The notes below the pieces were generated by a model. That model searched no databases. It saw only the letters and a list, made by a program, of their open reading frames with translations, and had not been told where the DNA came from. Of a stretch of DNA of 64,000 nt, positions 7,860 to 57,999 are shown piece by piece (within the stretch, counting starts at the first letter, position 1; every line of letters begins with the position of its first letter). The stretch is from NCBI GenBank assembly GCA_051294375.1, contig CM119267.1, positions 367,523-431,522 on the forward strand, written 5' to 3'. This DNA is from Paraspadella gotoi. Taxonomy: Eukaryota > Animalia > Chaetognatha. The position numbers and the translations under genes are program-made.

Positions 7860-10800
7860 CAATGGAACATAATGTATTCAAACGTTAGGTTTAAAGGAAA
7901 ACGCTCAAGCATAACAGAATTATTACATGAACATAACCCTGAAATATTCTTAATAACTGAAACACAATTGCGTTGTGACAGCGGCATTGAAATAAAAGGA
8001 TACACTTTTTTTAGTAAAACCCGACAAGACAAACAAGCGGGAGTAGGAATTCTATTGAGAAATGACCCTAACAAATATCACAGCCGTTCATAATCTGAAA
8101 GAGACTTAGAAATATTGTGGATCAGTATAAGAAGGAAAAATAATAGACCTATACTGATTGGTACTACTATGGCAAACAAGAAACTAGAACATCAAAAGCA
8201 GAAATCGAACAAGAATGAACTATTAGCCGAAGAGATAACTGAAATAGCAAATGAAGGAGAAGATCTTTCTAGCGATGGACGAAATGCTAAAATTGGGATA
8301 TTAGTGAGAAGACATTAGCCGTAACGGTAAACTATTACTTGATGTCTTAAACGAAACCAATCCTTATTATCATGAATAACAACTCTAAATGTATAGGAAA
8401 AATCACAAGGAAAAAACACCAAAAACATAAATGAAATTATCAGCATTGATTTTATTGTAGTAAGTCAAAACGTATCAGAATGGATACAACAGGTGCTTAT
8501 TGACGAAGACGGTATAATGAAAATAAAGGAAAAATAAACACTGATCACAACACTATCTTACTCGTCTTAATCTAACAACATAGCCCACCCCGCAATACAA
8601 AAACCAATCACTTGGAATATCCGAGCACCACCACACAAAGTGGAATTTGTTTAAAAAAGAGTTAAACCACCGACAAAAAACAATTAAAACTATAATTACA
8701 AAAAAATCAAATGTATAAATACAAGGTATAAAAAATGGATCCGTGAAGTGAATCAGCTGCTATGAAATCTATAGGAAAAACCACTATTAAATTTAAAAAA
8801 AAGGACAATTCTCAATACGATAAAACAACTGAGAAAAGAAAAACAAAAATTAAAAAAGCTATAATAATGAAAAAGACATGAATTGAGAAAACTAAATTTT
8901 AAAAAAATTGAGAACTTGTCAAGAAAAAATAAAAGAAAACAAAATTAAACGAAAAAAAAATTAAAACTTTTACAAAAACAATTCAAAACAATCATAAGTG
9001 ACTCAACCGGTGGTTTATTTTGGAAAGAAACAAATAGCCATTACAACAGATCACATTTTAGAATGTCTCCATAACAAAAAAACAATAATGGAGAAAGATT
9101 ATACCAGCCTGAAAGAAACATGGAAAATGTAGCATCCTATTACGAAAACATATATAAAAGATGTAACGTGAGATAATCACCCATTCCCGAGAAAGTTAAA
9201 CTAAATTTCATTAAATATGATAAAAAACCGAGAATTTTGAAAGTTTAGAATTTAATAAACCACCGACACAAAGACAAATATCTGATATTATAGAAATAGA
9301 AAAAAAGGAATGGAAAAACAACACGGTTTTAAAAATGAAAGCCTTAAAATACAAACACAGAAATGACAAAAATTATTTTATCAACTTACTTTCAACAATC
9401 TGGGAAGAAGAAAAAATACCTCAAAGCTGGAATGGAAGCATTATTACCAGCGTATGTAAAGGTAAGGGCGAATAAAGAAAAAACTTGATAAACCACCGGT
9501 CCAAATACAGTTTTCATCATCCATTCAGTACAATTCTAGAAGAATTTCTTGGATCAAAAAATACAACAAATTGTCCCATCTTACCCAAGCACAAGGTGTG
9601 AGGAAAAAAAGGCCATGTCTCAACTTACGATCATGTTTTTTTTATCGATCCTTAATTTCAAATTACTTCAGAAACAAAAGAGAAAATATGTTCTTAACTT
9701 TCTATGACGTGACAAAAGCATTGATCATGCGACTACTGAGACATCGTTTAGTAATAATGTGGGAAAAGTTAAAGAGGAAAATATGGCGGAAATTCTGAAA
9801 TATTAAAATGGAAATCTTTGTGCCAGAATAAAAAACACGGCTACGGGCTAAACGTCAAAAAAATTGGAAATGGAGGAAAACAGGCTCTCGCCTTTACAAG
9901 GTAGATTAATTTCCAAGCAGCATGGATACAATTGCAAGAAGAAATCAGTATGCTTCTTAGAACATTAAAAGTCACAGCAAATTTGCAAATTGGGCTCTAC
10001 TCTGGGTTGGACGATGTTGTCCTTGTGTTAGCAAGGCTCGTCAAAAACCAAGGAAAAAGTTCTTGGAAAAATTAGACCGATTGGGCTTGCTAGACACAAA
10101 CTAGAATGGGGTCAGCAAGACAATGTATTAATGCAAATTGGGGAAAATAGTGGACAAACGAGAAAAATGGAAACTTGGAAATATAAAAATTGAAAATTGC
10201 ACTTTCATATAAAGTATCTTAGGAGATATTATAAGTAAAGATGGTTAAAAATACAGAAAAACTTAGAAAACCGGAAAGAAAAAAATTTACAAATGAACAA
10301 TCGAAAATTACACAATGTCCTCAAATGAGTTATGAAACAAATAGAGACATCTTTCTTATCGAACTTCATGAAAAGATTTAATGGTTAGGTTTACTACAAA
10401 CTCCGAACAGGACACTGAACAAAAAAAGAACAAAAGATCTTAGAACAATAGAAATAAAGCATCAAACAATTTATTTTCACTCCCACTTTCAATTACCAAC
10501 ACAGCGTAATACAGCTTCGGTCTTTTGTCACAACTTGCCGAGTTCATCTCAAACAATTGCTTTATCTCCATAAAAATCTTAAACCAAAATCAAACACATT
10601 TGTACCATTACAACTTTTTTAATCCTGTTAGATGAAATGAACATTGGATGGACCAAAAATATAAAAAGAAAAAACTGTTTTAAATATAAAATTTAAACCA
10701 CTGATTTCACTCAATAAAAATAAATCAAAAAATCAATGGAAAATCGAAGTCAAAAAAGAGATAGAAAAATTAATAAACAAAAAATTACTAGACGACTGCC

Positions 10801-11070
10801 ATAAAAATAGAAAATGGAGAAAAATAGTAAAGTCTAAAACTCTAAATCAATCATAGATACCGTTACCAAATGGAACTACAAAAAGAACCATGCAGGAACC
10901 TACTAAAATGCACAAAAACAAAACACCAGATCTCTTTTGATAGCGAGAATTAACGTATGCATAGGATGTTTGGAAAAACTTCAAAGGATCTTTAAAAGAA
11001 ATCTGTGAACAATGTAACACTTTCGATGATGAAGAACACCGTCTAAATTATTGCGTTAAATGGGAATTTA
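7860..11070 (+). mobile_element. Non-LTR retrotransposon (LINE) ORF2: APE endonuclease - RT - CCHC, many frameshifts
   Basis: YSNVR..ITETQL..GVGIL and NAKIG, IDFI, DHN (APE motifs); KGKG, FLTFYDVTKA, KQGS, LLW-VDDV (RT motifs across frameshifts); CEQC..DDEEHRLNYC near 11005-11055. Confidence 0.85.
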
Positions 11071-18885: not shown

Positions 18886-19165
18886 TCGCGGATCAACTCT
18901 ATAAATTACTTTTCGGTCGGTCTGTCTTTCGGCCGGTCGGTGGGCGGGAAAAGTCCTCAAATCTAAGGGACTCCTCGCGCCGCCTTCAGCAAATCATGAA
19001 ACTATAAAGAGTAAAAGACGGAATTTCGATGCAGTGCCTGTCATAAATAAACGAGCGAAAAAAGTTATTGTAGTCATGTCATGTCATGTAGTCATGTGAT
19101 CTCAGGGAAATAAACGTGAAAATACTGTCGCTGCGGCGCAACACATTGGATGAACCTATTTTGTT
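18886..19165 (+). mobile_element. DINE-1/HINE-like (Helentron-associated) element, family H1, 5'-truncated
   Basis: Shares GTCGGTC microsatellite, GTCATGTCATG block and 3' GCGGCGCAAC with the copies at 26946, 34677 and 56667. Confidence 0.6.
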
Positions 19166-20208: not shown

Positions 20209-20680
20209 CAGTTGGATTCGCCTTTTGCCACCGACGTAATTCTAGTTGAGATGAGAAATATTACTCGAATAACAAAAAATAAAAAGTTCATTGCTAATCT
20301 TAAGTAATATCAATTATGTTAATAGTTTTTTATAAACCCCATCAGATTTTTTTTTAAATTTAACTCAGTTGATTCAATTTTTTGTGTGGAATTCGTAAAA
20401 AAAAAATTTAAATGAAAAAATTTTTTAATGAATTTGACGTCAATGAAAAATATTCCTTTTTTATTAATTTTTTTTGAAAAAAAATTCAAACTTTGAAAAT
20501 TTTTTTTTTTATTCGTACATTTTTAATTCTTCGCATTTTTTGCTAAGAATCTCTAACTCGAAATTTATTCAGTAGTTTACTTATTTTTTCTCTACTCTTT
20601 TTTTAAATTTCTTTTTTACCTTTTTCCTTTATTCTCCTTTTTTTCTTTTTTCTTTTCCTTTCCTTATACTTCTTTCCTCT

Positions 20681-20940
20681 GTGGATAAGGCTCTAAGTAT
20701 GCTGAAGATGACTATACGCAACTTTTTTAACCCTTCTAGAAGCCATGGAACGGTTCCTGGGTTTGGAACCAGGCTTGAGGGTTTTCCAGTCCCCCAAGGC
20801 GGGTTACGGGCGTCCTCACGCTTCCCGCAGGGTAGGAACCTGGTACCTAGAGGTCATGAGCTGATGGCTTTACCCAATGAGCCACCGGGTCACGACCGAA
20901 GGTGTCATGCTTATAGGCGGTGTGAAGTTATGCGATGCCC
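20681..20940 (-). mobile_element. Family A tRNA-derived SINE-like element with embedded type-P5 twister-like ribozyme (20750-20828)
   Basis: Minus strand: GGTGGCTCATTGG A-box head, then GCGG-GAA-GCGT-GAGGA-CGCCCG-TAA-CCC-GC-P3-CCTGG-TTCCAAAC-CCAGG-AA-CCGT; ends TTATCCAC; four homologous copies in the window. Confidence 0.75.
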
Positions 20941-24030: not shown

Positions 24031-24353
24031 GTGGATATGGACAAATCGATAAGTGGCCTGAAAATGACGTCAAATAAATATTAAATTTAACCTGTGCATG
24101 CGAAGTCCTGACAACAGACTTCAGTAACTTATCTAGCCCCTTCTAACGTCCATGGAACGGGTCCTTGGCTTGGAACCAGGTTTGGGAGGTGGCAATGCCC
24201 CCGAGGAGGTCGACGGCCGTCCTCACGCTTCTCATAGAGCAAGTAACGGGTTCGAAGCGAAAGCGGTACCATGTGGTCACAAGCTGATGACTGTACTCAA
24301 GGTCACGACTGAGGGAATGATAATTATTTTCGTGATTAAACTCAGCTATGCCC
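24031..24353 (-). mobile_element. Family A SINE-like element, degenerate twister (24157-24235)
   Basis: Minus strand GCGT-GAGGA-CGGCCG-TCG-ACC...CCTGG-TTCCAAGC-CAAGG; the UAA cleavage motif is mutated. Confidence 0.7.
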
Positions 24354-25366
24354 GCTATATGGAAAGCAAATAATTCAGCCTTGTCACACGACCGTGACAA
24401 TATTGTGTGGCAGCGAAGACAATCGTTTTAAAAACCGTCGGGGTACTAACGTGACACTTGCTTGACATCCTCCCGCCGTTTACCAAGAATCTGCCAACCA
24501 GAGATTCCAGAAAAAAAAACAATATTTTGACATTTTCTTTCTCGTTTGAGTTTTCTTGCTGCAACTGGCATCGACTCGCGTCAATGGGACAACTTTGTCT
24601 TTTTTGTCAAAAAGGAGGTACTATTTTTCGAAAGAGCCCAATTTCTGTTTCTAATCCCTGAATTAATTTTAATCAATGTTATCTAACTTTATAAAATATT
24701 TAACCCAATCCCTAACCCAAATCCCTAATCTTATCCCATTACCCTAATCACTGACTCTAATCCTTAAACTAACCCCTATCCTTAATCCATAAGGTTATGG
24801 ATTAATTACTTAGTAATTTTGAATTTAAACGGACATTGGGGTGGCTTTTGAAAAATATGATTAAAAAGGCCAAAAATTGGATGATGGACTTGAGCAGATG
24901 ACAATGGAAGATTGCAACAAAAAAAAACAATATTTCCAGATTTAATATGTCTTTTTTAATTTCGAAACAAATTTCAGCTGTCAATATCAGATATTTTTTG
25001 ATCGTTAAAATTCGTTTAAATGTTTTCCTTTTTTTGATATTTTAATCTTCGTGTTTTTTTTTAAAGCTGAACATCACAGATGGAATCAGAATTCGAGAAT
25101 GGAATCAGATCCGCGACTTCGGTAAAATCCCCCGGAAGCCGGATTGGACCTCCAAGAGAACCGACCAATCACTAGATGGGCTTCATGCCATCGGGAAAAC
25201 CAGCCCGTGTCGATCATCTACTTGATTAAATGTGAACTTTTTAATGGAGAAAAATGGGGATTTCATTTTAGGGAGCGGAGAATGAGAAGGTCAGGAGGAA
25301 GTAAAAAATAATATGTATGTATGTATGAATACTTACAATTGAAACATTCCTTGAAATATTATCCCT

Positions 25367-25538
25367 CTTCATTGATAGGGAAGCCAGGTAATAAACGAGA
25401 CTGTGATAGAGTCTTTGATTGAAAGCTTGCAGGGACCTGCTACTTCATTATCTTGTAAGAGTGATGGAGGCCTTAAGCCACCAAAGCCTGTCCAAAGTCA
25501 GGGGCGAGATAGCTTATTTATTAAATGAATGGATAATT
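25367..25538 (+). mobile_element. Family C dispersed repeat carrying a twister ribozyme
   Basis: Homologous (reverse complement) to 50056-50235, 54192-54375, 58697-58846 and 40981-41070. Confidence 0.75.
25449..25511 (+). ncRNA. Type-P5 twister ribozyme, apparently intact, with palindromic P1
   Basis: P5 TATCTTG/CGAGATA; P2 GAGT/GCC; L1 GATGG; P1 AGGCCT; TAA at 25474-76; T2 AC/GT; C-AAA-G; P4 CCTG/CAGG; L4 TCCAAAGT; T1 CCA/TGG. Confidence 0.8.
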
Positions 25539-25737
25539 TTTATATTGGAGAAGAGAGAAAGGTGAACTGTGAACTCGTGAACGCGGCCCCGAATCCCTGG
25601 GAGGAGGATGAAGAGGAGGTGAATGAGAAGGAGGGGGTAATAGACCCGCGTCTGTCTATCACCTTTTATACTGGGTTGTACCAATTTCATAAAAGACGAA
25701 GACGATTTTAAATGTTTTAAATAAGTTGTGATAACTT

Positions 25738-26010
25738 TTTAACCGAATCTGCTTGAAGCAAATTCCTGCTTTGTCGGTCTGTCGGTCTGTCGGTCCCACC
25801 ATAAAATCTTGTAATTTACTTAAATCATATCAGAACATCGAATTCTGATAAATTATGCATAAAAAAATAGATGTCCGTCCGTCCGTACGTCCGTCCGTAC
25901 GTCGTCCCACTCTTAGCTTTGTACGTAAATTACTCATGAGTGGATCGGGCGATTGACTTGAAATTTTGTGTGTATGTAAAGAAGTGTATGATTTAGCTGG
26001 AAATCAAAAA
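25738..26010 (+). mobile_element. DINE-1/HINE-like element, family H2
   Basis: ACCGAATCTGCTTGAAGCAAATTC 5' hairpin, (GTCGGTCT)n and (GTCC)n, then ACTCATGAGTGGATC...AAATTTTGTGTGT shared with the other copies. Confidence 0.6.
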
Positions 26011-26945: not shown

Positions 26946-27192
26946 TCGCCGCGAGTACTCGCGGAGCAACTCTTTAAGTCACTTTTCGGTCGGTCGGTCG
27001 GTATGTCTGTCCGTGATCACAAAGTAAATGCGGCATATTTCTTGTAATGTCGGGTCGTTTGAGTTGAAACTTTGCAGAGAAAAGTTCAACCATAAGACGT
27101 TGGTTATAACTTATACATAAATTTCCTAGTCATGTAGTCACGTGATCACAGGGAAATACATGTGAAAAGAAAATCACTTCGGCGCAACACAT
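26946..27192 (+). mobile_element. DINE-1/HINE-like element, family H1
   Basis: CGCCGCGAGTACTCGCGGAGCAAC 5' hairpin, GTCG/GTCY repeat, 3' CGGCGCAAC subterminal IR. Confidence 0.65.
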
Positions 27193-29137: not shown

Positions 29138-29382
29138 GCACACTGCATAAGTTCACCCCGCCTCTAAGCAATGACACCTCCAGCCGTGACCACTGACCAG
29201 TATTACCATCAGCTCAAGACCATTCGGTACCGACATCGAGCCCCAATGGTATCTTCCCTGCAGGAAGCGAGAGAACGACCGTAAACCACCTTGAGGGCGT
29301 GGAAAACCCTCCAATCTGGATCCAAGATCCGTTCCGTGGCGACTAGAGGGGGTTAAAGAAGTTACGGATAGCTCTCTTCAGC
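29138..29382 (+). mobile_element. Family A SINE-like element, degenerate twister (29260-29332)
   Basis: GCGA-GAGAA-CGACCG-TAA-ACC-AC-CTTGAGGG..ACCCTC..CTGG-ATCCAAG; shares the leader and the CCATCAGCTCA head with the other A copies. Confidence 0.7.
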
Positions 29383-30360: not shown

Positions 30361-30620
30361 TTTTTCGCCGGATCGGTTTACAGCAGATTCGAGCTTTATA
30401 ATTTACTTTGTCGGTCCGTCGGTACCCAACCCAAAATATTTTCAATAAGATCTTGTCATAATATCAAATTATGATAAATAATGCCCAAAAAAGTGATGTC
30501 TGTCCGACCGTCCGTACGTCTCCTATTAGCATTAAACGCCAATTACTCGTGATTGGATAGATGGATTGGAAATTACTTGATTAAATAATTATGATTAGCT
30601 GCTTACCGCTAATGAACGTG
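30361..30620 (+). mobile_element. DINE-1/HINE-like element, family H2
   Basis: GCCGGATC..GCAGATTC 5' hairpin, GTCY repeats, 3' AGCTGCTTACCGCTAATG matching 40005-40025 (reverse complement). Confidence 0.6.
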
Positions 30621-31421: not shown

Positions 31422-34400
31422 TCTCATTCCTCTCTCTCTCTCTCTCTCTCTCGGCTTGTCTCGCTCAATCCCCATTATACATTTGTACATTCAAGACATT
31501 TCAATTTTTTTTTAAATTTTCTTTGTCGCTGACGTTCATCGTCTTCGTCTTTGTTGTTGTTGTTGTTATCACGGGCGCCTTGGCCTCGTTGTTGTCTACG
31601 TCGTTCGTCGTCGTCGTCATCGTCGTCGTTATCGTCGTTTCAGTTCCAATCAAAACTCTCTCTCCCTCTCTCAGAAATATGAGGGCAAATCTCATGGCCT
31701 CCCTTCATTTCCGTTATGACCTTTTCAGTCAGTGTTCAAGATGGATTAGATTTTCAAAAACGTTTACACAAGTTGATCACACATATATATACTTTAATTT
31801 AAAACACCTTTATTCGATGAAATTTTCAACATGAGAGATTCCCGGTTTCATTTTATCTCGCTCCGAAATATGCCAAATTAGCTTAAGATCGAATTTGTCA
31901 GATAACGATGTACGCTCTTATTCGGCGTAATTTTAAAACGTTTTATATTGTAATATTATAAATAATTAAATATTAGTTTTTAGAAATATTATATTTATAA
32001 ATATAAATATTTATAGTATATATACTAATATAAATAAGACAAAATAGCATTTAAAACGGAGAGCTGAATGCTTCTTTACCTCTACTAAAATAGATAAAAT
32101 TCGAACAAGATTTTATGCATAAACCATAAATAATTAACTACTTTTGCTTCTTAAAATCCTTATTACATATTTAAAACTTTTTATAAATTATATATTCAAT
32201 TGTTTAAGTTACCCATTATATGTGCTTTTAATAAAAAGGTAAATAAGAAAAACTGATAACTTAAGATGAAAATAAGCAATAAAAGTAAAATATTAAGATA
32301 AATAATAATAAATTAAATCATTATCCAAAAATATTCATTAAACAATATTAATAATATATTAAATAATATTAATATATAACTATGAATTAATTTAAAAAAA
32401 TGATATTTTAAAAACTATTGCCAAAGAAACAATTTTAAATTGTTTAAAATTCTAAAATGAATATTTTTCTATAGCAAATGGATATTTATTTTAAAGCAAT
32501 TTTTAGGTTAACTACTCAACCAGGAAATTTTTTGGATGATAGCATTAAAAGAGAAATTTTTTTGTAACAAAAAAAAATTTTCTCTTTTAAAATCAGGGAA
32601 AATTTTACATTTTTAGAGCACCAAGCTTTGCGACAAGCAGGCAATTTTTAGTGATTAGTCTAATCTTACTCAATGTATTTCATAATAACCGGACTTTTAC
32701 ATAAAACTGTCATATCATAAATATTTTGAAAAATAAATAAAAATAAATTAAAATAAAAGGTTAAAAGCATAAAAAACTGAAAGTCTAATTGATAAATTCT
32801 CATATATACATATAGATAAAAAGCCGAAATAACAGAAAATTAAATACTGTCTAATAATATTACTAATTTGAATAACAAATAAATAGATTAAACGATTGGA
32901 TCAATTTTTGTGTTTTGATCGACATGAAGGAACTGTATTTTTTGATATTGTAAAAATAACGTTTTCTTATCTAATTTGTTTATATTCTGAATCATAATCT
33001 TTGTAACTCTGAATTGAAAACTATCTTTTCATTTTATAAAAGAAAACAAGAGCAACACTGAAAAAGAAAACTTAACTTTCCAAAAGTGATATTTATATAT
33101 GGAAATTGTTCGCTATTATGCTCTCTGTATTATATATAGAGTATATTTAACTCTCAAAATCTGAGTGCGATTGATTGATTTATCGTAATTCTAAGATTGG
33201 ATTACTAAGACATTTGTCATAATTTAGAATATATTAAAAAATCATAAGATCAACTTGTGTCTCGTAAAATAATATATAGATAGAAGGTTCTATGTTAAAT
33301 TCTTTTCATATTCAACTAAAATTGAAAAAAAGAGTAGATAACACAATATTCATTCGGATGGATTCGACATACATATCCAGAGTGACATACTGATACGCCT
33401 TACTCTCGTTTGTAACTCTCTCGAGAGCTGTTCGAACGGGACTGGACACGGCTAACACATCTCAGTCAGAAGACACTGATCGAGCTGTTTGTATTGTAGT
33501 GCGAGTAAAAACATTAGTTGCGCTCTCTGGCGTGTCGCCAGAATTAAGACAAAGTATTTATTTGTCTTCTAAATTCAACAACAACATATTTTAATCACGA
33601 TCACTACGTATGAATCAGCCATGACTGAATACAAAACTAAAACACTAAAACAACAGATCTCTCAGGATATAGTTTTCTGACTCCTCAAAGCTCATTCGGA
33701 AAAAAAAAAGGGATGACGCTCCTCAATGCGCGGCTTTCTCGAAAACCCGTCAGTTCGTGCGCGCGACTGAATTATTTGAGAAAAAAACCTAAATTAAGTG
33801 TGTGATATAAAAGAGGCTCGAAATATATTTATATGATGATACAAAGGAGAAATAAAACGACAAAGAATAAAATAAATAAATAGATAAAATAGAGAGAAAA
33901 GAGAGAAAGGCGCATGAAAAAGAATTAGGTAAATCAGAAATCAAGAACATTTATGTTATGTAGTATAACAATTATGTTAAAAAAAATTCATCTTTTATTT
34001 AAATATTAAATGATAATATTCATTGTTAATATAATCAAAGAAAGTTACTATATAAAGGAATCGGATTTTCAATTGATTTTCTTCAATATATGACAATTGG
34101 TACAACCTAATATAAAAATTATCCATTCATATAAAATAATAAGCTATCTTGACCCTGACTTGGATATATGTTCATACTGGAATTTCACAGTAAATCCCAA
34201 AACCAAAATTATCGCGATTAATTTCTAATTACTGTTTATACTTTATAAAAAAATAGAACAAAACTTATTAAAAATCACAACATAGCAGTTCTAAAAACTG
34301 TTAAAGATATATTATAGCATTACTCTCATAAAACGCTAGATTACAATAATTATTAATAATTCATAAGTTATTAAAAAAAAACTAAACTCATCGTCAGATT

Positions 34401-34676: not shown

Positions 34677-34828
34677 GTTGCGCCGCGAGTACTCGCAAAT
34701 ACTCATAAATACACGGGCAAAAAAAGTTTTTTAGTTATATCATGTCATGTCATATCATGTGATCAAAGGGAAATACACGTGAAAATAAAGTCACTGCGGC
34801 GCAACACATTGGAATCACCGTTCTTGTT
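34677..34828 (+). mobile_element. DINE-1/HINE-like element, family H1, internally deleted
   Basis: GTTGCGCCGC...GCGGCGCAAC perfect subterminal IR pair. Confidence 0.65.
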
Positions 34829-39867: not shown

Positions 39868-40445
39868 GCCGGATCTGCCCACGATCATAAGCGGTAAGCA
39901 ACTGATCAGATAATTAATTATTACTTAAAAATTTAATTAAGTAATTAATTAACATAATTTAGTTTCTATATTTTTTTCTTTTCAAAGTAAATGTAAATGC
40001 CAACGATCATTAGCGGTAAGCAGCTGATCAGATAAATTATTAATTATTACAGTTTGCATTTAATTATACAAAAAGAAGCATAATCAAATAGTGAAACAGC
40101 TTTTTTATATTTTCTATTTAAACTAATTTTCACTCGGATGATTCCATTGAAACTTTCCAGCTCAATAACACACTTCTTTACCCACACACAAAATTCAAGT
40201 AAATCGACCCATCCACTCATAAGTAATTGGCGTTTCATTGCTAAAGGGGGACGAATGGACGGACGGACAGACGGCAGACAGATAGACACACAGGACAGAC
40301 GAGGACAGATAATTTTTTTGCATAATTTATCATTGAATTTGAGGTACTGACATGATCTCAGTGAATGACCGACAAGATTTAGGGGGCGGACCGACGAACC
40401 GACAAAGTGAATTATAGAGTCGGGATCTGCTGAAAATACTAAAAA
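39868..40445 (-). mobile_element. DINE-1/HINE-like element, family H2, with duplicated 3' end
   Basis: GCAGATCC 5' remnant near 40425, GTCY microsatellite 40255-40310, subterminal GCCGGATCTGC at 39868; 39880-39920 is repeated at 40000-40045. Confidence 0.65.
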
Positions 40446-40804
40446 TACATAAACGCGATTGGCTGATTCGTCCGTCATCCGACCAATGAGAGTCCGCGTT
40501 CCTTTTTTACTCGACGCCGCCGCCCGCGCCGGGAAATCCCTATCGCCGCCGCCGCCGCGCGAAGCGCTGGTCGGAAAGTCGGCGGACTGCTTGGCAGCGA
40601 TGTCTTCGAGCCATTCGGGCACAACCTGCTGCCCGTAACAAAGTTGTCGGACAACGTCCATAGCGAGGCTTCGGTCGAGAGAGTTGGCTTCGTCGAAGAA
40701 GGTTACCGCCCGTCCTTGGAGGCCGCAGCGCCCGGTCCGCCCGATTCGGTGGACGAACTCTTCCGCTTTTTGGGGAAGATCCAAGTTGATGACGAGGTCC
40801 ACGT
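40047..40804 (-). CDS. vas: Vasa-like helicase exon 4 (motif VI); true stop uncertain, probably nearer 40450
   Basis: Acceptor CCTTCCACAG; (D)VDLVINLDLP..FVHRIGRTGRCG..GRAVTFFD..QVVPEWL; the frame then runs open into an H2 repeat. Confidence 0.75.
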
Positions 40805-40980
40805 CTGTGGAAGGGGGGCGTTGGTGTGGGGTCAGGAAGGAGGGGAAGGAAAGTGAGGATGATTTGATTCATTATTAATAATTAAATTTATGACAATTAA
40901 CTTATGTAAAAACCCGTGAATATATGGTAAAAGGAAATGATCTTTCAATAAATTACTATTTATTATTATTATTATAGATA

Positions 40981-41070
40981 TATTTCCTCCTGACTTTGGA
41001 AATGTTAATTAAGTCCTCAATTCTTCATACAAGATAATTACAAAGCAAGACCCTATAATCTTTCAGTCTA
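40981..41070 (-). mobile_element. Family C repeat, decayed twister, in vasa intron 3
   Basis: Minus strand TATCTTG...AATTG-AGGACT-TAA...TCCAAAGT-CAGG. Confidence 0.5.
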
Positions 41071-43009: not shown

Positions 43010-43787
43010 ATCTCCTTTTCCCCTCGACATCAACCCTAATCTCTTTTCCTCTAACACTCACCCTCGACGTCAACCCTAATCTCTTTTCCTCTAACATCAC
43101 CCTCGACGTCAACCCTAATATCCTTTCCCTTTACACTCACCCTCGACATCAACCCTAATCTCCTTTCCCTAACACTCACCCTCGACGTCAACCCTAATCT
43201 CTTTTCCCTAAATCACCCGATCAATCCTAATTTCTTTTCCTCTAACACTCACCCTCGATGTCAACTAATCTTCTTTCCCTACACTCACCCTCGACATAAC
43301 CCTAATCTCCTTTCCCCTAACACTCCACCTCGACATCAACCCTAATTTCCTTCCCTAACACTCACCTCGACATCAACCCTAATCTCCTTTCCCCTACACT
43401 CACCCTTAGATGTCAACCCTAATCTCCTTCCCCTAAACACTCACCCTCGACGTCAACCTAATTCCATTCCCCTAACACTCACCCTCGACATTCAACCCTA
43501 ATCTCCTTTCCCTACACTCACCCTTCGATCAACCCTAATCTCCTTTCCCCTAACACTCACCCTCTGATGTCAACCCTAATCTTCCTTTCCCCTAACACTC
43601 ACCCTCGATTGTCAAAACCCTATCTCTTTCTCCTAACACTCCACCCTCGAGGTCAACCCTAATCTCCTTTCCCTAACACTCACCTCGATGTCAACCTTAA
43701 TATCTCCTTTCCCCTTACAACTCACCCTCGATGTCAACCCTAATCTCCTTTCCCCTAACACTCACCCTCGATGTCAACCCTAATCTC
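43010..43787. repeat. 40-bp minisatellite (~19 copies) spanning the vasa exon 1 / intron 1 boundary
   Basis: Unit CTCACCCTCGATGTCAACCCTAATCTCCTTTCCCCTAACA; the last unit overlaps coding sequence RLGLTSR. Confidence 0.95.
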
Positions 43788-45520
43788 TGAATCGCGTCGA
43801 TTGCCTCCTTAAACCCGAGATCGAGCATCCGGTCCGCCTCGTCGAGGACGAACCACTCGACGCGGCTCAGGTCCACGATGCCTCGATGAAGATAGTCAAG
43901 AAGACGACCCGGCGTCGCCACGAGCACGTCCACGCCTCGGAGGTTGAAAGAGGCGCCGGTGCCGCCGTAGCAGACGCCGAGTCGAGCGTCGACGCCGGCG
44001 GCGAAATCTTTGAATTGGCTGTGAATCTGCAACGCCAATTCGCGGGTCGGGCAGAGGACGAGAGCCGAAGGGGCGGCCACGTCCGGATCGGGACTTCCTT
44101 TCTCTTTGTTCCGTTGGGCTCGGGGCGCCCGCTCGGCGAGTCGCGATAAAATGGGCAAAACAAAGGCGAGCGTTTTGCCGTATCCAGTGAGCGCGCAGGT
44201 CATGAGATCGCGCCCCGCCAGGATCACTGGCACCGCGTAGCGCTGGACCGGCGTCGGCGCCTCGTGAACGACGAGGAGGTTGGCGAGGACTCGAGGGTGC
44301 AGACCCATGGAGTTAAAATCCTCGGCGCCGTCTCGAAACTCCTTAGTTTTTGGTCCCGTGAGTTCGTGTGAGGCGTCGTTCATGTGAGCCAAATCGGCAT
44401 GAGAACGGGCGCCCCCGCCGCCACCGCCACCGCCATCGCCGCCACCGCCACCACCCCGGCCCCCACCGTAGCCTCCACCGCCGCCGCCGCAGTCCCGCGC
44501 GAAGTGACCGTTTTCTCCGCAACGAAAACAAGCAAGAGCGGGACATTCGCGTCGCAGATGGCCGAGTTCGTTGCAACGATAACAACGGCGATCGGGACAA
44601 TCTCGAACGAGGTGGTCCACGGCGCCACAAGCATGGCACGTTGTCACCGCGCCGACCCGGTCATCCTCGTCGTCTCGACGACCGATACGATTCCATTCTT
44701 TCCCGTTAGAGACAGAGAGGAATGGCCATCTGGGTTTTGGCCCGACGTGCTGATCGAGAGAAGAGAGAGAACCCGGTTGAGGAGGATCTCCCGAGCCGCT
44801 CCGGCCGTCTCCGGCACCGACGACGCTTTCCGGAGGAGAGGCTCGAGGGATGAGAGCCCCGCGTCCGAGATGATTTGATCTGCGGGGAGAGAGGAAGGCG
44901 GGAATCCGGCGATGAGAGAGAGCGAGGAATGGCGGGCGGATTGTCGGGCGGATTGTCGGGCAGATTGTTGACAGGCGACGAAAGCGCCTGAGTTCGAAGG
45001 GCGGGTAGTTGGGGCGACGGGGAGGTCGGTCATTGGCGCGGCGGATTGGCGGGCGGATTGGCGGGCGGATTATCTCCGAGGGATGGAGTAGAAAAAGCGA
45101 GGAGGGGGCGGGAGGGAGTGGGCGTTGACGGTTGTTGTTGTTGTTGTTGTCGTTGAACTTATGAGAGCCTGTCCTATAGCTGCTGCTGTGATTGGAGTTT
45201 TTGCTGTTGTTGTCGTCGCTGTTGTTGTTGTTGTTTCTGCAGAATGACGTTATCCCTTCATCCGGGTCGCCACCGTTCGCGTCAGCATGCCACGCCCACC
45301 CGTGAGCGCCGACGTCTCTGTCGACGTCACGTCCTCGACCGCGAGAAAGGACGCCGCCGTTTGTGACGACGCCGGGACGAACTGGCGCTGGTTGATGTCG
45401 ACTCTCAACGCCGTTTTCGATCGGCGCCATTAGAGGTCGCGCGTTCGAGGCGGCGCCGCCGGGAATAAGAGGCGCGTCCGATTCGGCGCGGATTCCTCGT
45501 CCGGCGCCAGAGCGAAACAT
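43766..45520 (-). CDS. vas: Vasa/DDX4-like DEAD-box RNA helicase exon 1 (3 CCHC knuckles, Q motif to motif II)
   Basis: CHAC..H..C, CYRC..H..C, CFRC..H..C; Gly-rich tract; PTPVQ, TGYGKT, PTRELA, GG, TPGRL, LDEADRMLDLGF; donor AGG|GTGAGT at 43765 (or 43725). CCHC knuckles favour Vasa over PL10/DDX3. Confidence 0.9.
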
Positions 45521-46336
45521 GTTTTTTGTTTGTTTTGTTTTTTTCTTTTTTCTTTCTTATTTTATGTTTAAGTTGTTTATGTTTATGTTAAAGTTCTTAC
45601 GAGTTTACGTTCACGTTACTATTTATTTGTTTTCACTACTTTATTTACTTTTTAAATTATAAATTTAAGAGAAAAAAAAAGTTTTGTTTTATTTCGAGGC
45701 GAAACACAAAAATCGAAGGCTAAAAAAAATGAGACAAACTTGGTAAAATTCGTGAATCGCGAATGTGAGAGGATAAAAGATCAAAGGACTGGATTCAAGT
45801 TGACGTCGAAGGGGAAAAAAAAGAAAGGAAAAGAAAGGAAATTACAGTAAAGAGAAGTGAAGCCCAATCGATTGAGATAAACAATCAGCGGCGAAAGCAA
45901 AGAATTTTGATGCCCCGTTTGGACGACCAGTCTACCTCATTTGTTTTGTTGTCTCTTTTTCTTTTCAGAAAAAAAAAAAAGATTTGTTTAGGTTTTCGTC
46001 GTCGTCGTCGTCGTCGTCGTTTGAATCCCGAACTTTGTCGTTATCGTCTCTTCGTTATCGTCCATTCGTTATTTCATATATTTAATTAATATAATTTTCA
46101 TTAATCGCAAACTTTATTAAAAACTTAAGTTGGATCAACTTTAATGCGCGATTTGCTATAGTTATTTCCTAAAATGAATCCTCAGCCTTCTGACTTGGAG
46201 CCAATGAGTTTTTTATCAGCCAATCAGCGAAGACTATTGAGAAATCCTCTTCCTCTTCCTCCTACGCTTTGATTTCTATGGCCTTGTCCTCCTCCCAAAG
46301 ATTTAAAAGCAACCAAATTTTGTGTTTTTTTTTAAT

Positions 46337-46468
46337 TTTTAAATCTTTATGTGCAATAATCGTTTTATGTTAAATTGTTATTGTTTTATATTTTATAGTT
46401 GTGTAGTTATATAGTTATATAGTTCTGTAATGACTACAACAACAACTTTCTGGTAATAACAAGACATA

Positions 46469-46517
<49 letters not shown>

Positions 46518-47955
46518 ATCCCCCTTCACCCTATGTGAGTCCATCCTAAACCGTCAAACCGTCAAACTGACTCAAAGCTGCTGCGAGTCTCGCCGACATT
46601 TATCCCGTCCGCCTCCTCCTCCGCCTCCTCTTTCTCTTCTTCTTCTTCCCGCAGCCCAGCCTTTGCTCGCAGCAGAGCCGCGCCCCGATCTTGACACAGC
46701 TGTTAAGCAGCGGCATAAAATCCGGAGCGGGATTAAATCCGCTGCAGCACAAACCGCGCGTCGACGCAGCTGGAAATCCTCTTCAGTTCAGTACTTGAGC
46801 CTTTTCCCTCACCCCCCCCCACCCGCGTGGGCCTCCGACCCGGCTTCCCAGGATCGGGTCGAAGCCGGTCCGGCACACGAAGCCGGCCTGACACGCCGGG
46901 TACTTTTTTTGGCCTCTGCGAAACCACGAGGCGAGAAGGGAGAACGAAAGGGGAAAGAATTAAAATTTTGGACTTTTGGCTCTCTTATTCGAGAGAGCCC
47001 CATTTCTGTTTTACTTTAAAATTTAATTTTTATTTTAATATTTAATATAAACATATTTTTAAACCTATAAACTGATCCCAAACCCTAATTCCTAATCGAG
47101 GATTAGTAATCTTAATCCTAAGCCTAATCCTAAATCTTAATCTTAAACCCTTATTCCTAGTTTTTAACCCTAAACGGGTCGTTCTGGGAAAATAGGACGT
47201 TGCGTATCTTATTCGTGAGGCAAGTTTAAGTTCAATTTTTTTTTTCTGAAATAATTGCGGTTGCATGAAGATCTTATGTTAACAATAAACGTGAACAAAA
47301 AAGGTAAATAAAAAAGAGATCAGTGGACAAAGTCAAGCAACTCCGTCCACATGAGACGGCAGCTCAATCACGGGATTCCAACTATAAGTGAAACAAAACA
47401 GATAGCCTCGACTCCAAACCCCTTTTTCCCCTCGATCGCGAAACAGGGAAACTTGAGATCAAGATATCAATTCCTAAGCCGTCTCTCCCTACGGCAACGC
47501 TCGCATTGGCCACCACGAACTCCGAGGGGCAGAACGATTAGTGGTGCTGCACAGTGCACAGTGACCTATTGACCAATTCCACTCACTTGACTCACCTGGT
47601 TTAGTAGTGGGTAGAGACCAAGCGTGTCCTTGAGTACACGACACACGACCCATAACTAACCCAACACCCAAACCTAATTTATAGAATAAATTAAAATTAT
47701 AACATGACTTAATTCGTGGCGATATAATAGAAATGTTTAATGATTGATTATTCATTACTGGTGTTTATGTATAAAAGCAAAGTTCAGAACGTTTATGTCA
47801 GCGAAAGTCGGGCTTACAAGGAGAAAGATAAAGAATGGAGACTGGGTGAGAGAGAGAGAGAGAGAGAGAGAGTGAGACAGAGACAGATAAGAGGAGAATG
47901 CAATCAACCATGAATTGTTACAGTGAGAAGAATTCCCGGCCTTTCTGCAATGGGG

Positions 47956-47990
<35 letters not shown>

Positions 47991-49091
47991 CATTGAGAGT
48001 ACTTGTGAAAATTAAAGGAGTCCCTTTCACATGTTCTCTGTTTAGAGACGATCTTCGGTTGTGAGTTTTGGTGAAAAAGACTTAAGTAGATTAAGGATGA
48101 ATTCAAGCGAGATACAAATTTTGTGAGTCGCCTTCCGAACTCAGTTTATTAGGAATTGTATCACCGTAACGCTCGATATTTGCTGCTGACAAGTATCACA
48201 AATTTAACAAATTTCAGTCGTTATTTTTTTTTTTTTTTTTGAAGTCTGAAGAAAAAACAAAACAAAGAGAAAATAAAAAATCAATGTAAACAAACAAAAA
48301 ACAAAACTGCCGGTAAAAATATTATTATTTAATCGGTGTCGGTCAAAAAGTCTCTTCGTATGAAAAAAGTTTTCTGTTGTTGTGATTATTAATCTCAGTA
48401 TTGATCTCATTTTAATCTTATTTTTAATCTCAATTTTAATCTCACTTTTAATCTCATTTAAATTTTGATATTTCGTGAAGAGGACAGCAAATCGCAAGTT
48501 ATTCTTTAATCTTTAAACTTTCTATTTCTCAGCGTTATTATATAAATGTAAACCGATTTAGTTAACTATTAATAATTATTTATAAAAGTAAATATAAATT
48601 CAGAAAAAAATTCTTTAGAAAAATAAATATTCAGGTGGATTAACTTAGAAATAGTTTCGGAGCAGAAACTCGAGAAAGATTTTTTTTTCAGGAGAATAAG
48701 AAAAGAAATTTTTTATCATTAATCATTAATTATATTCAAGCGGCGAAAATTCTTAAATCTCTGCCAACTTGATATCACAAGAAAATAATAAAACCAAACG
48801 AACAAATCCATCAGCGCCAAAAAATTAATCACCTTCTGGCCTTGTTATCGTCATAGATTTATTATTATATTTGCCTAATATACCGCAGTACTACGCGAGG
48901 CTAAGACGATTATTTTTAAACACGATTCTTCACATTTCATTCGTTTTCCACGATCACGACTGACCAACATTCGAAGAACAAAACTGTGAGTCGTCGTCGT
49001 CGTCGTCGAAAACCAAACGTGAAAAAGCAAAGGAGTTTTGAAAACCAGGCAGAGGCCTTTCTCTTTCACCGTGATAATCGTAAAAGGTAAT

Positions 49092-49126
<35 letters not shown>

Positions 49127-50650
49127 ATCTCTCTCCTCTGTAAAAGGGAAAGGTTCAGGTGAGCGAAAGCGAAAGAAAAATGGCTTCTGACGTTAAAAGG
49201 GAAGAAAGGGAAGACAACGACAACAACAACAACAACTAGAAAAACAATAGACTCGACCGTCACGCAGTGCTTTACACCTTGACGTCATAACATAGTGGCA
49301 AAAGAAAGGACGGACCAATCACCCGACACCAACACATGAAACAACCAACATAGACAAAATCAATAGGTACTCGAACCTGTCACTGACTCGCCAAGACTGC
49401 TAGAGTTTCAAAAAAATAATTAGTTTTAAAGAAAGAGACAGTGCAGCGTAGAGCGAGGAGAGTAGAGAGAGAGACAAGACGAGACGAGAGCACGAGAGAC
49501 GAGACGAGAGGAGAGNNNNNNNNNNNNNNNNNNNNNNNNNGAGAGAGAGAGAGAGAGAGCGTCAAACGACCCACGAAAAAGTAAATAAACATTTTCTTGA
49601 TTAAAATTCGAAAATTAAGTTGGTAAGAAAATCGCGACTAAAAAAAATAGCGAATTAATTAAACAAAAAAACTATCTCTCTCTCTCTCTCTCTCTTACCA
49701 TGACCAATTGTTATTTTCTCACGCCACATCTTTCACAATCGTCCTCCTTCAATCAAGAAACTGGTGAAGTCACCACAACAACGACAACAACAACGACGAC
49801 AACGCTTAACGCGTGAATGGATTCACGAGTTGTGAAGATGAAATGGATTCACAGCGTGACCTTGAGATGCGATTGGTCACTTCGTCACTCACCCTAAATA
49901 CGAAAGGAATTCGGTCACGTGACTGTCTACGAATCCCTTATCCTGGAGTCTCGACTCTCCGCCGCAGCCGCAGGAAAGCAGCGGCAGAAATGCTGCAGCC
50001 ATTTCCTGCCAACTCTCGTAAACATTAGAAACGAAATTGATACAATACAATATAAAATTATCCATTCAGTTAATATATTAGCTATCAGGCCCCTGACTTT
50101 GGACAGGCTTTCTTGGTTTAAGACCTCCATCACAGTTACATAGCAGTTCCTTGCAAACTTCCAATCAAGACTCTCTCTCTGTCTCGTTTATTTACTCCCA
50201 AAGTACCTGGTTTCCCTATCAATGAAGTAGGATGTTTATTTTTTTTAATAACCCGTTTATATAGTTGTGAAATATATTTCGTCTCATGTAGCGCTTTCCC
50301 TTTTTTGTTCAATATTTTTACGGCCATTTTTACCCTTAATATCCGAGTGAATTTGAGTTAATTTCAGTCGTACTTATTATAAAGTACGAGAGTTTCCGAG
50401 GGATCTCTATAAAGAATTAAAACGTTTTAACCTTTACTATACGACTTTTCCTTGGCGACTCACGTTGAGACGATTCGTTACGGGCGAAACATCAGACGCT
50501 CGTCCGCGCTCGCATGAGAATAAGCGACAATTCTCACTGGATAAACGATTCCTCGCTTCGCGATACGACGTCTACGAAACAATTTAATCCTATGCTTAAC
50601 AACTTCTCGTAATTAACGAACAAACGAACGAACAAACGAACGAACGAACG
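46337..50650. repeat. ~4.3-kb tandem segmental duplication, copy 1
   Basis: Colinear with 50661-54830 from TTTTAAAT..CAATAATCGTTTTATG to the (AACG)n tract. Confidence 0.95.
50056..50235 (-). mobile_element. Family C repeat with twister-like core (50083-50140)
   Basis: Minus strand GATGG-AGGTCT-TAA-ACC..AAAG-CCTG-TCCAAAGT-CAGG; T2 and P5 are damaged. Confidence 0.7.
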
Positions 50651-50660
50651 AAGAGAGAGA

Positions 50661-53611: not shown

Positions 53612-53684
<73 letters not shown>

Positions 53685-54830
53685 AGAGGAGCGTCAAACG
53701 ACGCCACGAAAATAAAATAAACATTTTCTTGATTAAAATTCGAAAATTAGTTGGTAAAGAAAAATCGCGACTAAAAAAAATAGCGAATTAATTAAACAAA
53801 AAAACTATCTCTCTCTCCTCTCGTCTCTCTCTCTTCTCTCATCCATGACCAATTGTTATTTTCTCACGCCACATCTTTCACAATCGTCCTCCTTCAAATC
53901 AAGAAACTGGTGAAGTCACCACAACAACACAACAACGACGAACAACGCTTAACGCGTGAATGGATTCACGAGTTGTGAAGAATGAAATGGATTCACGAGC
54001 GTGACCTTGAGATGCGCATTGGTCACTTCGTCACTCACCCTAAATACGAAAGGAATTCGTCACGTGACTGTCTACGAATCCCTTATCCTGGAGTCTCGAC
54101 TCTCCGCCGCAGCGCAGGAAAGCAGCGGCAGAAATGCTGCATTTCCTGCCAACTTCTCGTAAACATAGAAACGAAATTGATACAATACAATAAAATTATC
54201 CATTCAGTTAATATATTAGCTATCAGGCCCCTGACTTTGGACAGGCTTTCTTGTTTAAGACCTCCATCACAGTTCACATAGCAGTTCCTTGCCAAACTTT
54301 CCAATCAAGACTCTCTCTCTCGTCTCGTTTATTTACTCCCAAAGTACCTGGTTTCCCTATCAATGAAGTAGGATGTTTATTTTTTTTTAATAACCCGTTT
54401 ATATAGTTGTAAATATATTTCGCCTCATGTAGCGCTTTCCCTTTTTTGTTCAATATTTTTAACGGCCATTTTTACCCTTAATATCCGAGTGAATTTGAGT
54501 TAATTTCAGTCGTACTTATTATAAAGTACGAGAGTTTCGAGGATCTCTATAAAGAATTAAAACGTTTTAACCTTTAGTAAAGGCTTTACTATACGATTTT
54601 CCTTGGCGACTCACGTTGAGACGATTCGTTACGGGCGAAACATCAGACGCTCGTCCGCGCTCGCATGAGAATAAGCGACAATTCTCACTGGATAAACGAT
54701 TCCTCGCTTGCGATACGACGTCTACGAAACAATTTAATCCTATGCTTAACACTTCTCGTANNNNNNNNNNNNNNNNNNNNNNNNNATTAACGAACAAACG
54801 AACGAACAAACGAACGAACGAACGAACGAA
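50661..54830. repeat. ~4.2-kb tandem segmental duplication, copy 2
   Basis: Near-identical to 46337-50650; differences are mostly 1-nt indels. Confidence 0.95.
54192..54375 (-). mobile_element. Family C repeat (duplicate of the 50056 copy)
   Basis: Same sequence, lying within duplication copy 2. Confidence 0.7.
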
Positions 54831-56666: not shown

Positions 56667-57010
56667 AGTTGCGCCGCGAAAACTCGTGGAGCAACTCTAT
56701 TAGTCACTTTTTGGTCGGTCTGTATGTCTGTCCGTCAGTCTGTCTCACTTAAAAATGCTCATAATTCGCCTATATTTGGTTGCTCTTATGTTAAGACAGA
56801 AATAAAACCTCAAATCTAAATGACTGCTAGCGCCGCCTTCAGGAAATCCTAAAACTAAAAAGAATAAAAGATGAAATTCCGATTCAGAGAGTGTCATAAA
56901 TGCACGGGCTAAGAAAGTCATTGTAGTCATGTCGTGTCATTTCATGTTGTCATGTGATCACACGTGAAGATAAAGTCACTGCGGCGCAAGACCTTGAATG
57001 AACCGATTTT
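56667..57010 (+). mobile_element. DINE-1/HINE-like element, family H1, in intron 4
   Basis: GTTGCGCCGCG..GGAGCAAC 5' hairpin, GTCY repeat, 3' GCGGCGCAA. Confidence 0.7.
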
Positions 57011-57683: not shown

Positions 57684-57893
57684 TTTATAAGCAGGGTATG
57701 GTGGACTAAAATCCACCAACCGTTCATCAGCGGCCATTGGTGCCGGAAGCAAGTCATTCGCCTCCCAACCCAAAGGTCCGGGGTTCTAGCCCGGTGGCCG
57801 ACTAGCAGTTAAGAGGGACAGGGCGCTTAACCCGCCTGTAACACGGTGTTACAGCCTGATCCGAAGCTCAGGGACTGTTTATATTGAACGGTT
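57684..57893 (+). mobile_element. Family B element: tRNA-Gly-like head plus twister-like ribozyme
   Basis: CGGCCA/TGGCCG acceptor-like stem (57731-57800), TCGCCTCCCA anticodon arm, CCGGG-GTTCTAG-CCCGG T-arm, with the twister immediately 3'. Single copy in the window. Confidence 0.65.
57804..57879 (+). ncRNA. Type-P5 twister ribozyme with palindromic P1 (one T1 mismatch)
   Basis: P5 AGCAGT/ACTGTT; P2 GAGG/CCC; L1 GACAG; P1 GGCGCT; TAA 57828-30; T2 GC/GC; P3 CTGTAAC/GTTACAG; P4 CCTGA/TCAGG; L4 TCCGAAGC. Confidence 0.72.
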
Positions 57894-57999
57894 CTGTCAC
57901 TAACACATAACAATTATCACTGTCTTTTCAAGGGTAAACTTATGCAATACCCAACTACACTTATTCTTTTTATCTAAAATTAAAAACTTGATTCTAAAT

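What the first reader, a model, noticed from the sequence alone, without database searches (positions are those of the whole stretch)
25449..25511. Apparently intact 63-nt twister ribozyme (family C), best candidate for assay
Every element is present. P5 TATCTTG(25449-55)/CGAGATA(25505-11); putative catalytic G25463; T1 TGG(25465-67)/CCA(25492-94); palindrome AGGCCT(25468-73); cleavage predicted between T25474 and A25475; T2 AC(25480-81)/GT(25497-98); C-AAA-G mini-P3; P4 CCTG/CAGG. The AC/GT T2 is a compensatory change from the usual GC/GC. No tRNA head is visible upstream in this family.
Basis: partly seen in the sequence, partly recalled or inferred. Interest (0 to 1): 0.85.

Follow-up and report, generated by a model that had tools for sequence, protein, structure and literature searches.

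The report
Twister-type ribozyme with loopless palindromic stem
This stretch has the fold and catalytic letters of a twister self-cutting RNA and sits in a repeat present in very many copies, but one stem is shrunk to a six-letter palindrome with no loop, so it likely cuts well only when two copies pair up, which is untested and would be new for this ribozyme class.

Summary
Every named element is at the stated place. A strict twister descriptor hits only this site and 1 of 200 shuffled windows. Rfam Twister-P5 scores 21.5 bits, below its 37.6 cut-off. The motif lies inside a dispersed repeat found on 8,987-11,063 contigs per run. Nine twister-like copies from three families are in the window, and only this one keeps both pseudoknots and the UAA site.

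The AC/GU pseudoknot and the 3-nt P2 strand are ordinary: 153 and 177 of 333 phage type-P5 motifs have them. The unusual part is P1, a 6-nt self-complementary segment with no loop, whereas all 333 phage motifs have 12-30 nt there. All three families have such a hexamer, with different letters. This points to a strand-swapped dimer, like the minimal hammerheads of Penelope-like elements. P1 is reported dispensable, so monomer cutting is a strong rival.

The proposed assay needs changes: 25440-25520 is predicted to misfold, and G-to-A at the base is a weak control (0.52 residual). Cleavage is untested.

The parts
25334..25548 (+). Body of the family-C dispersed repeat in this copy (5' end ragged between copies; the family runs further 5' in other copies)
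   Evidence: Summed contig depth in run X1 rises from 20.8 in the flank to 3e5-1.8e6 over most of the body; in-window relatives at 50048-50233, 54192-54374, 58699-58813, 34109-34161, 41009-41068
25449..25455 (+). P5, 5' strand
   Evidence: pairs with 25505-25511; pair probability 0.96-1.0 in 25447-25513
25459..25462 (+). P2 strand ahead of the catalytic G (G-A-G-U); A25460 likely bulged
   Evidence: A25460 is T in 2-12% of family depth
25463..25464 (+). Predicted general-base G25463 and the conserved A of the A.A pair
   Evidence: aligned to Rfam Twister-P5; invariant in 7 of 7 aligned copies; roles from PMC5408937
25465..25467 (+). Pseudoknot T1 strand
   Evidence: 3 Watson-Crick pairs with 25492-94; two of three pairs covary between families
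25468..25473 (+). P1 reduced to a 6-nt self-complementary segment with no loop; predicted intermolecular duplex -9.1 kcal/mol
   Evidence: 0 of 333 phage type-P5 motifs have under 12 nt here
25474..25476 (+). U-A-A site; predicted cut between 25474 and 25475, A25475 the predicted general acid
25477..25479 (+). P2 strand after the site (3 nt); G25477 is private to this copy
25480..25481 (+). Pseudoknot T2 strand (AC)
   Evidence: pairs with 25497-98
25482..25486 (+). One-pair P3 (C-AAA-G)
   Evidence: families A and B carry a longer P3 hairpin here
25487..25502 (+). P4 hairpin with loop L4 (U, T1 partner, AA, T2 partner)
   Evidence: pair probability 0.74-0.80
25505..25511 (+). P5, 3' strand; G25506 is private to this copy
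25549..25663 (.). Second, unrelated repeat inserted into the family-C tail, between 11-nt direct repeats (25538-48 and 25664-74, 10 of 11 alike)
   Evidence: (joints skipping it; depth about 1e4-2e4)
25664..25690 (+). Displaced 3' end of the family-C element; fixed end followed by variable A/T-rich flank
   Evidence: loose ends behind 25548 match this stretch
57797..57881 (+). Family A twister-like copy behind a tRNA-like head; T1 broken
20745..20840 (-). Family B twister-like copy; T2 broken. Further B copies at 24152-24247(-), 29248-29337(+), 57507-57610(-)
50080..50151 (-). Decayed family-C copy, T2 broken; duplicated at 54218-54289(-); a deleted copy at 58720-58809(-)

Best explanation
It is a circularly permuted (type-P5) twister-type RNA motif inside a very high-copy dispersed repeat, predicted to cut itself between U25474 and A25475, and because its P1 stem is a loopless six-base palindrome it likely cuts efficiently only as a strand-swapped pair of copies. 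Shown: the sequence elements, their pairing, the repeat family, covariation across three families in the window, and that P1 lies outside the range of 333 phage type-P5 motifs. Inferred from twister structures: T1 and T2 dock L4 on the core, G25463 acts as base and A25475 as acid, leaving a 2',3'-cyclic phosphate and a 5'-OH. Inferred by analogy with minimal hammerheads: two RNAs, or two tandem units, swap halves. The 5' half of one (P5, P2, G-A, T1 strand) folds with the 3' half of the other (UAA, T2, P4, L4), and the two hexamers form one 6-bp P1 joining two active sites. A lone transcript would then be mostly spared and could be copied whole into new sites, which fits genomic copies running through the site. 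Which autonomous element moves the repeat is not known.
For: Descriptor specificity and the Rfam P5 match. Eleven of 17 pairs show two-sided changes across 7 window copies and 86% of cells pair, against 19-51% when slid (structure derived from these sequences, and two rows are one duplication). Among family-C copies, 3 of 3 sites varying at 3% or more inside the motif fall in the 9 unpaired, non-catalytic positions of 63 (P about 0.002). The rice-ribozyme equivalents of this copy's pairs stay active: G13A/C31U 0.89, C27A/G47U 0.83, C9G/G44U 0.95. P1 is 6 nt and self-complementary in family C (AGGCCU), in the one A copy (GGCGCU, inner pair swapped to C-G) and in one B copy (CGGCCG); phage motifs have 12-30 nt, 333 of 333. 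The inner pair cannot form within one strand. Depth shows no step at the site (1.44e6 before, 1.40e6 after in X1) and no pile-up of ends. Precedent: palindromic helix III and dimer cutting in hammerheads (PMC4209133; PMC6765202).
Against: No cleavage data. P1 is reported dispensable, with near wild-type rate (PMC5408937; PMC11662667), so a monomer may cut unaided. In family B two of three readable copies break the inner pair, both at the third letter, and the family-A swap rests on one decayed copy. The two decayed C copies have a G.U there. Copies are dispersed: only single contigs show partial tandems (one each in X1 and X2), so a partner in cis is not evident. The third P2 pair is a mismatch or a bulge, whereas 170 of 177 phage 3-nt P2 stems are contiguous and 0 of 177 start with G.U. 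With upstream flank, a rival helix is predicted to hide the catalytic G (probability 0.4-0.6). The Rfam score is far below cut-off.
Confidence: 0.47

Rival explanations
1. An ordinary monomeric twister with P1 nearly deleted: the six bases are just a linker, or one to two pairs with a tiny loop, and each transcript cuts itself in cis at 25474/25475.
For: Twisters lacking P1 cut at almost wild-type rate (PMC5408937). P1 imperfections and length did not affect cleavage among natural twisters (PMC11662667), and every P5-bearing twister tested there cleaved over 0.80 (small sample). Two outer hexamer pairs are kept in all copies, as a mini-hairpin would need. The inner pair is broken in 2 of 3 B copies.
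Against: Does not explain the self-complementary inner pair in C, A and one B copy. A fast internal cutter should destroy the template of an element whose copies span the site (no depth step). Closing A25468-U25473 within one strand costs about 3 kcal/mol in the nearest-neighbour model.
Confidence: 0.32
2. A twister-derived fold that is now catalytically very slow or dead, in this copy or in the whole family, kept in source elements as a structural handle (for example for a reverse transcriptase) or simply not yet decayed.
For: Copies span the site. P2 is weak, and one review cites the suggestion that changing the P2 pair number disturbs the active site. This copy has two private G.U changes and private upstream letters within the rival helix. 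Eight of nine window copies are broken. Penelope-type minimal hammerheads cut poorly in vitro.
Against: The catalytic G-A, the UAA site and both pseudoknots show no variant at 3% across family-C depth, while free positions vary, and three diverged families keep them. Three-nt P2 is natural (177 of 333).
Confidence: 0.19
3. A chance resemblance to a twister in A/T-rich repeat DNA.
For: Sub-threshold Rfam score (E 0.12 locally, 4 window-wide); folding z-score of 25440-25520 only -0.26.
Against: 0-1 of 200 shuffles match the descriptor; covariation across families; Rfam's model also hits two sister copies.
Confidence: 0.02

Closest known systems
Twister ribozyme, type P5 (Rfam RF02684, clan CL00120)
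   Same: Strand order, G-A after P2, UAA site, T1, T2, P4/L4 with inner G-C; AC/GU T2 and 3-nt P2 strand are shared with many phage type-P5 motifs
   Different: P1 is a loopless hexamer instead of a 12-30-nt hairpin; third P2 pair bulged or mismatched; closed by a 7-bp P5 (a 5-bp stem nearby in only 36 of 333 phage motifs); scores below gathering
Minimal and type-I hammerheads of Penelope-like elements and metazoan retrozymes (PMC4209133; PMC6765202; PMC7761336)
   Same: Self-cleaving motif in high-copy animal retroelements with one helix cut down to a short palindrome and proposed or shown to work as a dimer
   Different: Different ribozyme class; no link to a Penelope-like ORF or pseudo-LTR was shown here; copies are mostly dispersed, not tandem
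Twister T-variants at the 5' end of Schistosoma Perere-3 LINEs (PMC8501958)
   Same: Twister with defective P1 in a retroelement
   Different: Those are type-P1-order motifs whose cut defines the element's 5' end; here the order is type P5, the site is internal, and copies do not start at it
Schistosoma SINE-like elements with hammerheads (as reviewed in PMC6765202)
   Same: Families A and B in the window put a ribozyme behind a tRNA-like head
   Different: Twister rather than hammerhead; family C shows no tRNA-like head in the copies scanned

Membership tests
Twister ribozyme (type P5) | Conserved G-A after P2 and N-A-A cleavage site | tested here: met
   G25463, A25464, U25474-A25475-A25476
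Twister ribozyme (type P5) | Pseudoknot T1, three pairs plus A.A | tested here: met
   3 Watson-Crick pairs, both As present, covariation between families
Twister ribozyme (type P5) | Pseudoknot T2, two pairs | tested here: met
   A-U and C-G; variant common in phage motifs and active in rice ribozyme
Twister ribozyme (type P5) | P4 with inner G-C pair and U...A in L4 | tested here: met
   G25490-C25499, U25491, A25496
Twister ribozyme (type P5) | Stem P2 (four pairs in the consensus) | tested here: inconclusive
   3-nt strand is natural (177 of 333), but here G.U, C-G, then bulge or mismatch; 170 of 177 phage cases are contiguous
Twister ribozyme (type P5) | Stem P1 as an intramolecular hairpin | tested here: not met
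   6 nt, no loop; 0 of 333 phage motifs under 12 nt. P1 is reported dispensable, so this lowers 'is a canonical member', not 'works like one'
Twister ribozyme (type P5) | Rfam RF02684 gathering score 37.6 | tested here: not met
   21.5 bits
Twister ribozyme (type P5) | Site-specific self-cleavage | not testable with these tools
   needs an in vitro assay or RNA end data
tRNA-derived SINE | tRNA-like head with A and B boxes | tested here: inconclusive
   No B-box-like motif upstream in two family-C copies; B-box-like motif in A and in one of two B copies scanned (box patterns recalled). ARAGORN and Rfam call no tRNA. Family-C 5' end not reached
tRNA-derived SINE | Poly(A) or simple-repeat tail | tested here: inconclusive
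   Fixed 3' end followed by A/T-rich letters that differ between copies; majority-vote A runs may reflect A/T-rich flanks
Penelope-like element (Naiad) tail or derivative | Sequence link to an RT/GIY-YIG ORF or to a known consensus | tested here: inconclusive
   No real protein hit for the one 49-codon open frame; 12 short motifs gave no twister-like context in the published consensus file (exact text match, line breaks can hide hits); no genome to walk upstream
Penelope-like element (Naiad) tail or derivative | 5' truncation with partial tandem insertions | tested here: inconclusive
   Ragged 5' ends in window copies; go-back joints in single contigs only
Non-LTR retrozyme | Tandem repeats, each with a ribozyme | tested here: not met
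   No tandem array of the unit at this locus; window copies are solitary

The most novel reading that the evidence does not exclude
A natural dimer-dependent twister ribozyme: several high-copy animal repeat families, some with tRNA-like heads, carry a type-P5 twister whose P1 forms only between two RNAs, making cutting a sensor of tandem or abundant transcripts. This would be the twister counterpart of the dimeric hammerheads of Penelope-like elements, a convergent control device in retroelement RNAs that standard Rfam searches miss.
Probability: 0.35. Interest if true: 0.78.

Novelty: new variant of a known kind. Interest (0 to 1): 0.55.

Why it matters
Twisters in animal repeats are known, but their job is largely open, and I found no report of a natural dimer-dependent twister or of a twister behind a tRNA-like SINE head (searches; open-access library only). 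A 63-nt motif makes the dimer question directly testable in a day. If true, it shows the same solution (one helix cut to a palindrome) arising in two unrelated ribozyme classes in retroelements, and it explains how an element can carry an internal cutter without destroying its own template. The family also appears to have tens of thousands of copies that fall below Rfam's cut-off, so such ribozymes are likely under-counted.

Tried and rejected
Whole genome: none is held, so families A and B could be judged only from window copies.
RNA evidence: no RNA holder listed. Run X9 is only guessed to be RNA; 642 contigs laid, no evidence of transcription. Runs of coded organisms B, C and D gave 1, 1 and 3 contigs at depth under 5, nearly identical to family C: no cross-species covariation, possibly carry-over.
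Family-C pattern in JGI metagenomes: 0. Subtype patterns: 1 viral locus, 66 metagenome loci and 120 further viral loci; of these 187 only 1 passed a loose pairing filter and it is not a credible twister. Phage collection blastn: no match.
Coding remnant: a 49-codon open frame over the motif gave 0 of 8 candidates, two chance hits to repeat proteins and no Pfam family. A GIY-YIG-like reading seen by eye needs a frameshift and was dropped.
Poly(A) tail: first assumed, then withdrawn.
Short P2 and AC/GU T2 as novelties: rejected by the phage control.
A loose descriptor was uninformative. A form with the family-majority letters did not fold better in a flanked window (P5 probability 0.08 against 0.07), so flank-dependent misfolding is not only this copy's problem, and the folding model ignores pseudoknots.
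Supplement of PMC11662667 (list of tested natural twisters) could not be read; it may hold loopless-P1 examples. The dimeric-hammerhead paper PMC5785218 is not held.

Full report
1. Observation. No Rfam family reaches its cut-off anywhere in the window. In E-value mode Twister-P5 matches 25460-25502 at 21.5 bits (cut-off 37.6), and two sister copies at 29.4 and 21.7 bits. A descriptor requiring G-A, N-A-A, Watson-Crick T1 and T2, P4, two P2 pairs and the C after T2 finds this site alone; it hits 1 of 200 shuffled windows, and 0 of 200 when a 6-bp P5 is also required (descriptor written after seeing the hit). Plain folding is not informative (z -0.26), as expected for a double pseudoknot.

2. 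Setting. The window is microsatellite-rich eukaryotic DNA with a split DEAD-box and zinc-knuckle helicase gene and a STELLO-type ORF, likely from an animal; no genome is held. The motif lies inside a dispersed repeat. Five other fragments are in the window, and 8,987, 11,063, 1,829 and 642 contigs of four runs of one organism lay on it. In run X1 summed depth is 20.8 in the unique flank and about 1.4 million over the motif, a ratio near 69,000. The tool warns that this is no copy number, so I take it only as 'tens of thousands'. This copy starts near 25334; other copies start at other places or run further 5'. The 3' end is fixed and here is displaced to about 25664-25690 by a 115-bp second repeat between 11-nt direct repeats. 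I first read a poly(A) tail, but individual contigs continue with different A/T-rich letters, so this is uncertain. There is no step in depth at the predicted cut and no pile-up of ends (contigs have little power for this, and 803 loose-end rows were not shown).

3. Three families, one architecture. A model built from 7 window copies recovers them plus two more decayed copies (57507-57610 and 58720-58809), among 15 matches up to E 3; the other 6 score 12.2 bits or less. Families A (57797-57881) and B (four copies) have tRNA-like heads by box motifs only; ARAGORN and Rfam call none. All share: short junction, G-N-G-(U/G), G-A, T1, a 6-nt segment, U-A-A, a 3-nt P2 strand, T2, P3, P4/L4. On the 7-copy alignment 11 of 17 pairs change on both sides and 86% of cells pair, against 19-51% when slid. 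The structure came from these sequences, two rows are one segmental duplication, and T2 was left out because the aligner misplaces it. Of five copies parsed by script, only 25449-25511 keeps both pseudoknots (which stopped after five). By eye, the B copy at 24152-24247 has lost the A-A at the site and the one at 29248-29337 has a deletion; the last two are deleted or decayed.

4. Constraint within family C. At the 3% threshold five positions inside the motif are listed. Two (25477, 25506) are private G's of this copy against 98-99.9% A; both leave G.U pairs. The other three (25460, 25484, 25504) are real family variants, and all lie among the 9 unpaired, non-catalytic positions (P about 0.002; 25484 passes 3% in one run only). 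By my count 4 of about 71 well-covered flanking positions vary, so zero among the 54 constrained ones is only modest further support. This suggests selection on the source elements.

5. What is ordinary and what is not. I retrieved phage type-P5 motifs with five patterns (one scan stopped at 26 of 64 parts; the P1 gap was allowed 4-30 nt). 332 of 397 loci parsed into 333 distinct motifs. AC/GU T2 occurs in 153 and a 3-nt P2 strand in 177 (shares depend on my patterns), so neither is special. P1 spans 12-30 nt in all 333. The third P2 pair is contiguous in 170 of 177, and none of the 177 starts with G.U. The loopless 6-nt P1, and a likely bulged P2, are therefore what set these animal motifs apart. 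Scans for this subtype elsewhere found nothing credible (1 of 187 loci passed a loose filter).

6. Would it cut? From the rice-ribozyme double-mutant matrix (PMC5113685: whole main text; supplement rows; counted), the equivalents of this copy's pairs give relative activity 0.89 (T2 A-U; 0.17 for the single change), 0.83 (T1 A-U) and 0.95 (P2 G.U; 0.63 for A-U). These are one-at-a-time values in a 2-h end-point assay. PMC11662667 (abstract; sections 9, 32-35, 38; supplement unreadable) reports about 94% of natural candidates active, with P1 and P2 imperfections tolerated. PMC5408937 (passages and section 11) says P1 is dispensable but also cites a suggestion that P2 length matters. Against activity: with upstream flank a rival helix 25443-50/25462-69 hides the catalytic G (probability about 0.6 in 25440-25520, 0.4-0.5 in longer flanks), while 25447-25513 folds P5 at 0.96-1.0 and P4 at 0.74-0.80. 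I put the chance that this copy cuts detectably in some format at about 0.75.

7. Mechanism. Inferred from twister structures: G25463 is the base, A25475 the acid, and the cut falls at 25474/25475. The hexamer can make at best one or two intramolecular pairs (closing the outer pair costs about 3 kcal/mol) but a full 6-bp duplex with a second copy (-9.1 kcal/mol; -8.3 for family A). It is self-complementary in C, in the one A copy (inner pair swapped) and in one of three readable B copies; the other two B copies differ at the third letter, each by a different base. A dimer would need the two RNAs to swap halves, as proposed for hammerheads with a palindromic helix III (PMC4209133 passages; PMC6765202 passages; the paper titled on dimer cleavage, PMC5785218, was seen only as a reference). 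Such gating would spare lone transcripts and fits copies that span the site. I give it 0.47, monomer cutting 0.32, slow or dead 0.19, chance 0.02.

8. Which element? Earlier AI notes report type-P5 twister folds in the tails of Naiad Penelope-like elements, one of them lacking its first helix. [quoted passage not shown] That fits, but my tests gave no link: no protein hit and no twister-like context for 12 short motifs in the published consensus file. Schistosoma T-variants mark 5' ends of LINEs (PMC8501958, part 3 of 9 and passages), unlike this internal site. A 2026 preprint on retrozymes (part 1 of 5 and passages) does not mention twisters. PMC7761336 (passages) mentions unpublished truncated twisters at RTE 5' ends. 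PMC10085705 (passages) found no new twister permutations.

9. Verdict. A real twister-type motif of type-P5 order. It is not filed as a canonical RF02684 member, because an intramolecular P1 and the cut-off are not met. It is a new variant of a known kind. Nine literature searches showed no dimeric twister or twister-bearing tRNA-headed SINE in listings or passages read; subscription papers and one key supplement were not seen. Interest 0.55; 0.78 if dimer dependence is shown.

Noticed in passing
window 25549-25663: Inserted repeat (summed depth about 1,100 times the flank in X1). By eye it ends in a 9-of-10-bp hairpin (25636-45/25654-63) whose loop is complementary over 6 nt to 25581-86, a possible pseudoknot; no Rfam match.
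   Followed up: partly
window 57740-57900 (+); 20680-20896 (-), 24138-24247 (-), 29145-29382 (+), 57442-57681 (-): Two further repeat families put a twister-like motif directly behind a tRNA-like head; all five copies here are damaged.
   Followed up: partly
L188-L584 (IMG/VR contigs), e.g. L435, L281: Type-P5 twister motifs are common in phage contigs and often come in runs of 3-5 within 1-2 kb; many have a 3-nt P2 strand and AC/GU T2, unlike the 4-pair, GC consensus.
   Followed up: partly
window 43715-45556 (-) and 40047-40868 (-): DEAD-box helicase with three zinc knuckles, C-terminal piece further along (Pfam); Vasa-like by recall.
   Followed up: no
window 59010-60860 (+): 616-codon uninterrupted frame with a STELLO glycosyltransferase match.
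   Followed up: no
window 46337-50652 and 50661-54826: Tandem duplication of about 4.2 kb at 92-93% identity, which duplicates one family-C copy; could be an assembly of two haplotypes.
   Followed up: no
window 18955-19162, 27129-27192, 34703-34813, 56808-57010; and 25769-26003, 30377-30567, 40154-40436: Two other dispersed repeat families without a twister motif.
   Followed up: no
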